From: Tubulanus polymorphus | Taxonomy: Eukaryota; Animalia; Nemertea | Assembly: GCF_964204645.1 (NCBI RefSeq) | Contig: NC_134031.1 | Span: forward strand, 1,550,001-1,614,000 | DNA length: 64,000 nucleotides | Direction: 5' to 3' | In this document: piece after piece, positions 23,601-26,600 of the stretch | Numbering within the stretch: the first letter of the stretch is position 1 | Layout of the letters: each line of letters begins with the position of its first letter | The notes under the pieces: model-generated | Databases searched by the model: none | What the model saw: the letters and a program-made list of their open reading frames with translations, nothing else | What the model was told of the DNA's origin: nothing | Program-made: the position numbers and the translations under genes

Positions 23601-26600
23601 TTGAAAATGGCTGATAGAGTTGAAACATGAATCCTCTGTGGGTTTTTAAATCAACTCAATCACTCTCTAATTCTTAGTAATGCCATTTCTTTCACTTAAT
23701 GGATTAAACAAAATTACCTTCTTTCGGACTAATGACATTATTCCGATCCTGGTGAGTACATGTTGTCGTGACAACCCTTCTCGCGGTACTCCGTCGGCGA
23801 ACGTATCCGAGTTATCGGCTCCGGGTTCACAGAGATGTCTCATAAACAGCGACACATAAGCTTTGAAGACTTTCTCCGATTTGTTGCGTAAATCTCGTAC
23901 GAGCCATTGAGAATTGAACGCGTCTTGTGGAGGCATTCCGTACCTCATTACAGCGTTCAGGAACGCTTTCCTCTGTCGAGCGTTGAATCCTAACACCTGC
24001 AACAATGAGACAATACGTTGAATGAGATCAGAATTCAGCGGTAGATATTCTCCTCTTTGCTCTTGCTCCGGTAAGGAGTGAATGTACACAGTCAAATACT
24101 TCAGACATAGACAGAAACTGTTTGATCTCAACAAATTTTCCTAACTTTTAGCTATTTTACAAAATTTCCTGACTATTCCTCGAATTTTTTAAAAAGAAAA
24201 TTCCAAGACTTTTCCCTGGTTTCTAGGTTAAGCGGCCACTCTGCCTGGTGGGTAAGTTGCGAATGTACCATGATGCCTTTAAAAATTGCACTGAAAATCG
24301 CGCAATTTCCTAAATACATGGTTAGATTTTTTTCTACGTCTGACGTTCACTACAAAGTGATCCGAGTCTCGAGAAACTTTGCTCAGCCTCATCAGACGAT
24401 GTTCGTAGTAATTTAGAGATGTGTTTTGCGTTCATAGATGGCAGCACCATGAAGAGAGGTATTGCCCAGTTCATACACAAACAATTATTATGTATGTCAC
24501 ATGAAGAAGGCACTATAACAGATACTTCACTGTATAATACTCGATAATTCACGTGACAATATTCAACGCTGCAATAAGAATATGGATTGAAATGAACGTA
24601 CCTCAATTTGTCCATTAACGCGAGCCAATAGAGGGGGTAACGGTCGATCTCTGTCTCCACGACGTTTACTGCTTCGACCTTCAGTTTTCTCATCAAAGTC
24701 ATCATCATCTTCCTCATTCTCTGCAATCAATGTTAACAGTGTGAAACACGGACGATTTATCCAGATGGAATGGTGAATTGAGAGAGGGGCAAGATTATCA
24801 CCTCTAATAATCAAGACCCAGTTCCACAGTTGTGAGTTAGAGTTAACTCCGAGTTAAGATTATTTCACTTTCAATGAGTTAAATCAAGAGTCAAATCTTA
24901 ACGCAGAATTGTGGAACTGGATTCAAATCATTCACAAATAAATGGTTAGACCCTCTATAACATATTTTACATTTCTGAACACATTGAACAAATCAGATCA
25001 GTATTCCCCGGAACAAGATAGTAACAAAATACTGAAAATCAGCAGCAATTGGCAGTTCTGGGTTATCAAAACCGAATAATCCTAAATTCCGTAATTCATT
25101 CAGCCTTCATTATCTTGGTGCCCAAATACCGATGACCCACGATATACGGATGATAAACTCACCTCGACCGGTCTGACCGCTGAAATCCGAATCAAAGTCC
25201 GATAGATTCTCGTTCCATTGATCCTCATCGTTCGCGGTCATTGCGTCGTTATAATTGACTTGTTTACGAACTCGTTTGCCTTTACCGAGCGTTCGCGCGA
25301 GATCCTCCTGTTGCTGCTCGTAATGATGTCGTAATAGTTTCTCCCAGTACGCCGGATCGGCAGTATCTGCTTCCTGTTTGATCACCTCACGTTCTTGCTC
25401 CTCCTGAAATCAACAGAAAAATTATCAATGAACAATTTCTGTCGAAGACAAAGAAAACTTCAGGGGCTGCAGTTGCTTAGAAGTTGGTTAAGAAAACTGG
25501 CGGATAGATACCATAGTGACAATGAACTGTTACTTGTCACTATGTCAACTATCCACAGGTTAACTCTAAACAACTGCTGAACAACTGGCTCCAGGGTTTG
25601 TTACAGATCAGGGGATCCAAAATTTTCTGATCTTTGACCAAAAATTCCCTTTGAATCATAAGGTATTCTCAGGAATATTTCTTCAAAAGAAGTTTCTTGT
25701 GCCACTTGTCACACTGAAGAGTCTGAATTCCCTGATTTTTCTGCTGGGAACAATAAATCCAGAATTCCCTGATTTTTTTTGGATCTGTAAGAACCCCGAG
25801 GACCACGTCACAAAATCCACAAACCTCTTCCTCTGTTTCTTTCACTTGATATGTAGCGACCTTGAACGAACTGAGATATTCGTTCATCGCTTCGATTTTC
25901 TCGACCTGTCCAACCTGCGACCGATCGAGTAATTTCGATATCGCCTCGTCGTCGTAGACGATACGATTCTCCTCATTGTTGTCGGTGGTTTCCTCTTTAA
26001 ACAGTTCCTCCGTACCGAACTTCAGGATGTCGTCCAGTTCTTGTTTAGACATACTGGCACCTTTAGCTCCCATTCCCGGCCGTACGACCAAATGAGTCAA
26101 CATCATTTTTTTCTTGGCGACCTGAGTGATACGTTCCTCGACGGAACCCCTCGTTACGAATCGGTAAATCATAACTTTGTTTGCTTGACCGATTCTATGA
26201 GCTCGACTGAATGCCTGCAATCAAAAAACGAATTTCAATGAAACCATGATCAGTATTTTAGGGCTGAAAAGTGTTATCAGTAAACATCCATTATATATAT
26301 ATCGCTTATAGTCTTACAGTAAGAATTGAATTTTTTTCAGGAAATATATTTCATTGAAACATGAAAGAATATTTAGCAATTATCAGTAATCAATAGTGAG
26401 ACCCTCAGTAGCATATTTCTTATTAGCACCTTTCATATTTCTGTATGCATCAAACAAATCAAATCAGTTTTTACTTGTTACATAACAAATACTGAAAATA
26501 TCAGGAACAGCTGTTGGCTTATTTCAACCAGTTTAAATATCACATTAGTTACCTGTATGTCATTGTGAGGATTCCAGTCAGAATCGTAAATGATGACAGT

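What the first reader, a model, noticed from the sequence alone, without database searches (positions are those of the whole stretch)
24261..24558. Four-hairpin tandem H/ACA architecture (two units about 20 nt apart) in one intron
A second complete hairpin-H(ACATAA)-hairpin-ACA unit (24558-24418) lies directly 5' of the U2/U5 guide. Exonucleolytic trimming of an intron normally releases one RNA, so the pair may form a single ~300-nt composite, as in U93/SCARNA13. Alternatively it is a rare dicistronic intronic cluster that needs endonucleolytic cleavage. I could not assign targets to the 5' unit's pockets (TTATCGA/CTTC and ATGAACTG/ATCTATGA), so they are possible orphan guides.
Basis: partly seen in the sequence, partly recalled or inferred. 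Interest (0 to 1): 0.78.

Follow-up and report, generated by a model that had tools for sequence, protein, structure and literature searches.

The report
Tandem H/ACA RNAs in Mi-2 intron
An intron of the chromatin-remodeller gene Mi-2 holds the known kind of guide RNA predicted to modify the spliceosome's U5 RNA and, 20 bases upstream, a second guide-shaped sequence with no target or relative found, so the two may be trimmed out as one four-hairpin RNA, which remains untested.

Summary
The sequence observation holds. A 605-nt intron of Mi-2/CHD4 (minus strand; splicing seen in contigs) carries two hairpin-H-hairpin-ACA units with a 20-nt unpaired linker.

3' unit: its 3' pocket pairs with U5 loop 1 by 11 Watson-Crick pairs, 14 nt from the ACA box. 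The same pocket occurs in 9 of 19 same-position introns, all arthropod-like. It is a likely counterpart of ACA57/SCARNA11 (U5 pseudouridine 43, host CHD4).

5' unit: its architecture is better than chance (1 of 2651 shuffles), with canonical pocket-to-box distances. No homologue was found in 80 loci, and no canonical target in fungal rRNA proxies or published animal snRNA rows. Eight complete guide-bearing introns are too short (190-280 nt) for two units. The 7 spiralian-like introns lack even the U5 guide, so conservation among close relatives is untested.

No expression data exist for either unit. A single ~298-nt SCARNA13-like product is somewhat likelier (0.42) than two separate RNAs (0.28) or a silent 5' unit (0.22). 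Intronic H/ACA clusters are common in Drosophila, so this is a variant of known kinds.

The parts
23997..24601 (-). Host intron (605 nt, GT-AG, phase 0) of Mi-2/CHD3-4-5
   Evidence: Spliced contigs skip 605 nt; the flanking exon matches CHD4/Mi-2 proteins at up to 98%; exons span about 32900-20700
24419..24558 (-). 5' unit: predicted orphan box H/ACA RNA
   Evidence: Fold z -3.35; 1 of 2651 shuffles; helix probabilities 0.93 and 0.81 in the 298-nt fold; no homologue
24495..24558 (-). 5' unit hairpin 1; pocket TTATCGA (24547-24541) / CTTC (24509-24506), 16 nt from the H box
   Evidence: Sequence and fold
24488..24493 (-). H box ACATAA (ANANNA)
   Evidence: Unpaired probability 0.91; untouched by the 3-nt deletion next to it in the X1 contig
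24425..24484 (-). 5' unit hairpin 2; pocket ATGAACTG (24474-24467) / ATCTATGA (24439-24432), 15 nt from the ACA box
24422..24424 (-). Internal ACA box (alternative register 24422-24420)
   Evidence: Sequence
24399..24418 (-). 20-nt linker, predicted single-stranded, no stem for a double-strand nuclease
24261..24398 (-). 3' unit: U5 loop-1 pseudouridylation guide, likely ACA57/SCARNA11 counterpart
   Evidence: Fold z -5.01; pocket 6+5 bp at 14 nt; same pocket in 9 of 19 same-position introns
24368..24371 (-). CGAG at the tip of the 3' unit's first hairpin, CAB-box-like (consensus recalled, not from a call)
   Evidence: Sequence; CGAG also lies at the tip of the first hairpin in L039 (by eye)
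24330..24335 (-). H box AGAAAA of the 3' unit
   Evidence: Sequence; partly paired in the protein-free ensemble
24275..24314 (-). U5 pocket: TTTAG (24314-24310) and AAAGGC (24280-24275)
   Evidence: Complementary to the two sides of one uridine in the Lottia U5 loop (PMC2396436 suppl. 3); invariant or nearly invariant columns in alignments
24264..24266 (-). Terminal ACA box, 3 nt from the predicted 3' end at 24261
   Evidence: Conserved as ACA (ATA in L059) in relatives

Best explanation
An intron of Mi-2 carries a conserved guide predicted to pseudouridylate U5 loop 1 and, 20 nt upstream, a second H/ACA-shaped unit with no target or relative found, and the pair is likely trimmed from the spliced intron as one ~298-nt four-hairpin RNA. 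Shown: host gene, intron, two folds with boxes at canonical distances, U5 complementarity, and conservation of that pocket in arthropod-like genomes. Inferred: H/ACA core proteins load on both units, exonucleases stop at the outer ends (24558 and 24261), and the unpaired linker is not cut. The CAB-like loop would take the whole RNA to Cajal bodies. The 3' half would modify U5; the 5' half would be a lineage-restricted addition, a passenger or a guide for a species-specific site.
For: Architecture beyond chance. In the 298-nt fold all four helices have mean pair probability 0.81-0.93. The linker is short and unpaired. Two snoRNAs in one intron give snoRNA-ended composites through exonuclease shielding (PMC11028025, passages). 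SCARNA13 is a 275-nt tandem whose halves can each mature alone, and loss of its internal ACA leaves only the 3' half (PMC9458449, passages). Weak sign of constraint: in the one X1 contig spanning the units, the 2 changes inside them and 1 indel in run X7 all fall in hinges. That contig has 5 changes in the 90 nt at 24721-24810 (Fisher p=0.01 post hoc).
Against: No RNA evidence for either unit or for the product size. The 5' unit has no homologue in 80 loci, so covariation could not be tested. Eight complete guide-bearing introns hold one unit only. No canonical target was found. Drosophila clusters H/ACA genes in introns, and by recall these mature separately. The 5' unit has no clear CAB box. 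In the whole-intron fold hairpins 2 and 3 are displaced (0.38 and 0.01), though the four-hairpin form is only 4.2 kcal/mol higher. The polymorphism signal rests on one contig; neighbouring contigs have 0-2 differences over 190-450 nt, and 76 variant rows were not shown.
Confidence: 0.42

Rival explanations
1. A two-gene intronic cluster: both units are real, and an endonucleolytic cut in the linker releases two ~140-nt RNAs, the U5 guide and an orphan snoRNA.
For: H/ACA loci are generally clustered in Drosophila introns (PMC3089462, passages). Each unit has its own complete boxes and folds alone. The U5 guide works as a single unit in all 9 relatives found.
Against: The linker is 20 nt and unpaired, with no obvious nuclease stem. 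Silkworm and vertebrates follow one snoRNA per intron. Separate maturation of the Drosophila clusters is recalled; the primary paper was not held.
Confidence: 0.28
2. Only the 3' unit accumulates. The 5' unit is a decaying or newly landed snoRNA copy, or a fortuitous fold, that binds core proteins poorly and is degraded up to the U5 guide.
For: No homologue and no target. SCARNA13 lacking its first ACA yields just the 3' half, so this route exists.
Against: Both boxes, both pockets and both distances are intact (1 of 2651 shuffles). No stem or pocket change appears among the listed variants. The unit is not a repeat: single-copy depth and no second copy in the window.
Confidence: 0.22
3. The 5' unit is a conventional rRNA or snRNA guide whose target I missed because only distant proxies were available, for example a site in an animal-specific rRNA segment or in the variable part of this species' U2 or U11.
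For: The targets tested were fungal rRNA (18S, 5.8S, LSU model 1-2260 plus about 1250 nt beyond) and snRNA rows of other species read by eye. Canonical geometry suggests an ordinary guide. A 4+5 bp match to the LSU A-loop exists.
Against: Best rRNA scores are at chance level: 29 of 30 shuffled target sets scored as well for hairpin 1, and 17 of 30 or 8 of 30 for hairpin 2 by ACA register. This rival is compatible with either processing route, so it overlaps the others.
Confidence: 0.25

Closest known systems
ACA57 / SCARNA11 (chicken GGgACA29; Drosophila pugU5-44)
   Same: H/ACA guide whose 3' pocket targets U5 loop 1 (position 43), hosted in a CHD4 intron (PMC6466398 table; PMC2653536 table). 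Drosophila has an intron-derived U5-44 scaRNA (PMC3884663).
   Different: Rfam's model does not score the 3' unit even at E<=10. Chicken's copy is listed in intron 33, and equivalence of intron position was not tested. The fly host gene was not visible (table not held). The listed chicken RNA is a single 147-nt unit. The fly guide failed to modify U5 in a Xenopus extract.
U93 / SCARNA13
   Same: Two complete H/ACA domains in tandem within one intron, 275 nt against 298 nt here; one of its targets is in U5.
   Different: Different targets (U2-54, U5-53), different host, no Rfam match. It is a shown single transcript; here that is a prediction. PMC9458449 calls SCARNA13 unique in its tandem structure, so this would be an independent origin.
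Drosophila intronic H/ACA clusters; sno-lncRNAs such as SLERT
   Same: More than one snoRNA per intron or spliced-out segment.
   Different: SLERT arises by exon skipping and has an internal non-snoRNA sequence; here the spacer is 20 nt. The two units here are not alike (alignment z 0.29), so this is not a recent tandem duplicate.
SCARNA21 / ACA68
   Same: Guide for minor-spliceosome snRNAs (U12-19, U6atac-83); its CHD3 host is recalled, not from a call.
   Different: The 5' unit's pockets do not fit U12-19 or U6atac-83 in canonical geometry (by eye); no Rfam match.

Membership tests
Box H/ACA RNA (5' unit) | Hairpin-hinge-hairpin-tail fold | tested here: met
Box H/ACA RNA (5' unit) | H box ANANNA in the hinge; ACA 3 nt from the end | tested here: met
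   ACATAA 24493-24488; ACA 24424-24422; the real 3' end is unknown
Box H/ACA RNA (5' unit) | Pockets about 14-16 nt from the boxes | tested here: met
   16 and 15 nt
Box H/ACA RNA (5' unit) | Bipartite complementarity around a target uridine | tested here: inconclusive
   No match above chance in fungal rRNA and none canonical in published snRNA rows by eye; the species' own RNAs were not available
Box H/ACA RNA (5' unit) | Conservation with compensatory changes | tested here: inconclusive
   No homologue in 80 loci; no close relative carrying the U5 guide was among them
Box H/ACA RNA (5' unit) | Expressed and bound by dyskerin | not testable with these tools
   No small-RNA run listed
ACA57/SCARNA11 (3' unit) | 3' pocket pairs around the U5 loop-1 uridine at canonical distance | tested here: met
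   6+5 Watson-Crick pairs, 14 nt; numbering of that uridine as 43 is recalled
ACA57/SCARNA11 (3' unit) | Hosted in a CHD4/Mi-2 intron | tested here: met
ACA57/SCARNA11 (3' unit) | Scores against the Rfam family model | tested here: not met
   No match at gathering score or at E<=10; so filed as a functional counterpart and likely orthologue, not a scored member
ACA57/SCARNA11 (3' unit) | CAB box and Cajal body location | tested here: inconclusive
   CGAG at the first hairpin tip (consensus recalled); location not testable
U93/SCARNA13-type tandem | Two complete H/ACA domains in tandem in one intron | tested here: met
U93/SCARNA13-type tandem | Accumulates as one RNA | not testable with these tools
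   No suitable RNA data
U93/SCARNA13 family proper | Targets U2-54 and U5-53, and sequence similarity | tested here: not met
   No Rfam match; pockets do not fit those sites by eye

The most novel reading that the evidence does not exclude
An independently evolved four-hairpin scaRNA that joins the ancient U5 guide to a half that grips U6atac. The two strands of the first pocket (CCTTCTT and TTATCGA) are each complementary over 7 bases to two U6atac segments that flank the catalytic AGC, 12 nt apart, in the sea-urchin and Nematostella rows. This would be a loop-out, non-canonical pairing serving a modifying or chaperone role in the minor spliceosome. The human row breaks one pair, no mollusc U6atac row was found, and my hand estimate of chance is 0.03-0.3. 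The milder claim, a second natural four-hairpin H/ACA RNA with an orphan half, has probability about 0.4.
Probability: 0.04. Interest if true: 0.75.

Novelty: new variant of a known kind. Interest (0 to 1): 0.36.

Why it matters
SCARNA13 is described as unique among H/ACA RNAs in its tandem build (PMC9458449). A second, unrelated tandem, formed by adding a unit upstream of an old single guide, would show how composites arise. It would also give a clean test of whether spiralians can separate two snoRNAs in one intron, as flies are thought to, or leave them joined, as vertebrates do. The 3' unit extends the pairing of U5 guide and Mi-2/CHD4 host to a spiralian-like genome. If only the 3' unit is expressed, the finding is ordinary.

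Tried and rejected
Rfam: no match in the whole window at gathering scores, and three irrelevant weak matches near the locus.

Expression: no RNA holder was listed. Runs X4, X5 and X6 gave spliced contigs with no cover of the units. X9 and X10 laid nothing. Contigs of such libraries cannot show small RNAs, so none of this is evidence either way.

Own genome: not held, so the species' rRNA and snRNAs could not be searched. Scans of viral contigs for U2, U5, U6, 18S and 28S motifs gave no snRNA gene (Rfam found nothing in 20 of the 32 U2/U5-motif loci). They gave only a 361-nt LSU end. Plasmid and phage collections held no match to eukaryotic LSU.

rRNA targets: the first search included non-rRNA flanks; its best hit for hairpin 1 lay outside the 18S gene and was dropped. 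The trimmed search gave only chance-level matches. In one search the two hairpin-2 strings included the first base of the ACA box, so printed distances there are 1 too large.

U2 role for the 3' unit: rejected (see first-reader verdict). SCARNA21-like targets: rejected by eye. A UCGAUA segment in Lottia U2 complements one pocket strand, but the other strand does not fit and Aplysia differs.

Tandem duplication: rejected (z 0.29; 108 of 300 shuffles scored as well). Repeat origin: rejected.

Covariation of the U5 hairpin: RNAalifold on a MAFFT alignment gave no consensus structure. Species-specific lower stems are visible in single sequences, but no formal count was obtained, and picked the wrong 5' strand in several rows. 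Model R2 recovers only its 9 training sequences and misses L001, so it is no independent support.

Scanner on 30 loci (129 kb, relaxed threshold): 7 hits, some clearly in exons, and only 1 of the 9 guides, so its sensitivity is low.

Literature: 9 searches ran; no listing showed a tandem H/ACA in Mi-2/CHD4 or mollusc scaRNAs. The original U93 paper and the Drosophila genome-wide snoRNA paper were not held. PMC6984369 and PMC6298559 had none of my terms; PMC10948791 and PMC8522698 passages added nothing decisive.

Full report
Setting. The region lies on the minus strand inside a Mi-2/CHD3-4-5 gene. The exon at 23996-23718 matches CHD4/Mi-2 proteins at up to 98%. Over the whole gene the seven best-scoring of the long proteins tested are five named mollusc proteins and two unnamed ones, so the organism is probably a spiralian; no genome is held. 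Contigs from runs X5, X6 and X4 skip exactly 605 nt, fixing the intron at 24601-23997.

Observation. Both units are present as described. The 5' unit folds with z -3.35 and the 3' unit with z -5.01. In the 298-nt pair all four helices have mean probability 0.81-0.93, and the 20-nt linker is unpaired. In the protein-free whole intron, hairpins 2 and 3 are displaced by a fold 4.2 kcal/mol lower; with pairing limited to 100 nt the four-hairpin form returns. A scanner requiring two hairpins, H and ACA boxes and pockets 13-17 nt from the boxes found the full pattern in 1 of 2651 shuffles of the 201-nt region, and none as stable. It found the 5' unit as the only two-pocket hit in 128 kb. The scanner was written after I saw the unit and misses the 3' unit, so it supports 'not chance' but is a poor test of absence. 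Rfam has no match.

The 3' unit. Its 3' pocket (TTTAG / AAAGGC) pairs by 5+6 Watson-Crick pairs on both sides of one uridine in U5 loop 1, 14 nt from the ACA box. I confirmed this by eye against the Lottia U5 row in supplement 3 of PMC2396436. Human ACA57/SCARNA11 targets U5-43 and sits in CHD4 (PMC6466398, table passage; PMC7960923, table passage); chicken has the same arrangement (PMC2653536, passages). That the paired uridine is number 43 is recalled. A metagenome scan gave the best 80 of 173 loci. Eighteen had an intron at this position, one a duplicate; three further apparent gaps were spurious and dropped; two more loci had a partial intron. Of the 19 distinct introns examined, 9 carry the pocket-plus-ACA motif. 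Seven of the 9 pass a strict geometry test, as does one probable chance hit in L077. All 9 are arthropod-like; the 7 spiralian-like introns lack it (the assignment is weak for short loci). The first hairpin's pocket is not conserved, and the U2-complementary bases form its lower stem, so a U2 role is not supported. An earlier AI note from another genome reached the same U5/Mi-2 reading; I saw it after forming mine and do not count it as support.

The 5' unit. No homologue was found by nhmmer, pairwise alignment, or a single-sequence covariance model over 81 sources with filters and 18 loci without (best E 0.21). Eight of the 9 guide-bearing introns are complete and 190-280 nt long, too short for two units. 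The ninth, L039, is over 1 kb and has a weak H/ACA-like fold upstream at chance level. So the tandem is not the arthropod state, and its state in spiralians is untested. It is not a duplicate of the 3' unit nor a repeat. Within the species, the X1 contig spanning 24234-24839 differs at two places in the units, both in hinges, and run X7 shows a one-base indel in a hinge. The same contig has five changes in 90 nt of the next intron (p=0.01 post hoc). This is weak, because neighbouring contigs differ little and 76 variant rows were not shown.

Targets. Against fungal 18S, 5.8S and most of the LSU, pocket matches were at chance level. Against Lottia U1, U2, U4, U5, U6, U11, U12 and part of U4atac, Aplysia U2, and human, sea-urchin and Nematostella U6atac rows, read by eye, I found no canonical site. 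One oddity: both strands of the first pocket complement U6atac segments 12 nt apart in sea urchin and Nematostella. The geometry is not that of a guide, and chance is a fair explanation. One supplementary file of that paper could not be read, and the text of others was cut.

Mechanism. Intronic snoRNAs are normally trimmed by exonucleases up to protein-protected ends, and two in one intron yield a joined RNA (PMC11028025, passages). SCARNA13 is the 275-nt precedent: each half can mature alone, and loss of the inner ACA leaves the 3' half (PMC9458449, passages). With a short unpaired linker I favour a ~298-nt product (0.42). H/ACA genes are, however, generally clustered in Drosophila introns, while silkworm keeps one per intron (PMC3089462, passages). 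Two separate RNAs (0.28) and a silent 5' unit (0.22) therefore stay open, and mixtures are possible. Every step after splicing is inference; no RNA data bear on it.

Verdict. Real feature. The 3' half is a new instance of a known guide. The tandem is a variant of two known arrangements, apparently lineage-restricted and unverified in expression. Interest 0.36.

Noticed in passing
window 24811-24921: High-copy element with internal inverted and back-running joints (depth hundreds- to thousands-fold above single copy) in the intron upstream; MITE-like.
   Followed up: no
window 24086-24245 and about 25013-25071: Further multi-copy repeat fragments, one lying between the 3' unit and the 3' splice site.
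   Followed up: no
window 24526-24517 (minus strand): The tip of the 5' unit's first hairpin reads AGTATCTGTT, identical (sense) to 10 nt of the U2 branch-site region in the Lottia row; chance not measured.
   Followed up: no
L039:289-452: Weak H/ACA-like two-hairpin fold about 115 nt upstream of that locus's U5 guide; at the scanner's chance level, but the only hint of a second unit in a relative.
   Followed up: partly
L009:745-890 (approx.): The same-position intron lacks the U5 pocket but has, by eye, a long hairpin ending in ACA plus three T's; possibly a different guide.
   Followed up: no
L055-L057, L061, L064, L066, L077, L078: Spiralian-like Mi-2 loci keep this intron but show no U5 guide, suggesting loss or relocation in those lineages.
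   Followed up: partly
window 41520-41363, 39983-39834 (minus), 63210-63348 (plus): Three weaker H/ACA-like scanner hits lacking a first pocket; probably chance.
   Followed up: no
L081-L139: Bacterial genome records that hold eukaryotic (mostly fungal) rDNA contigs, i.e. contamination; used here only as rRNA proxies.
   Followed up: partly
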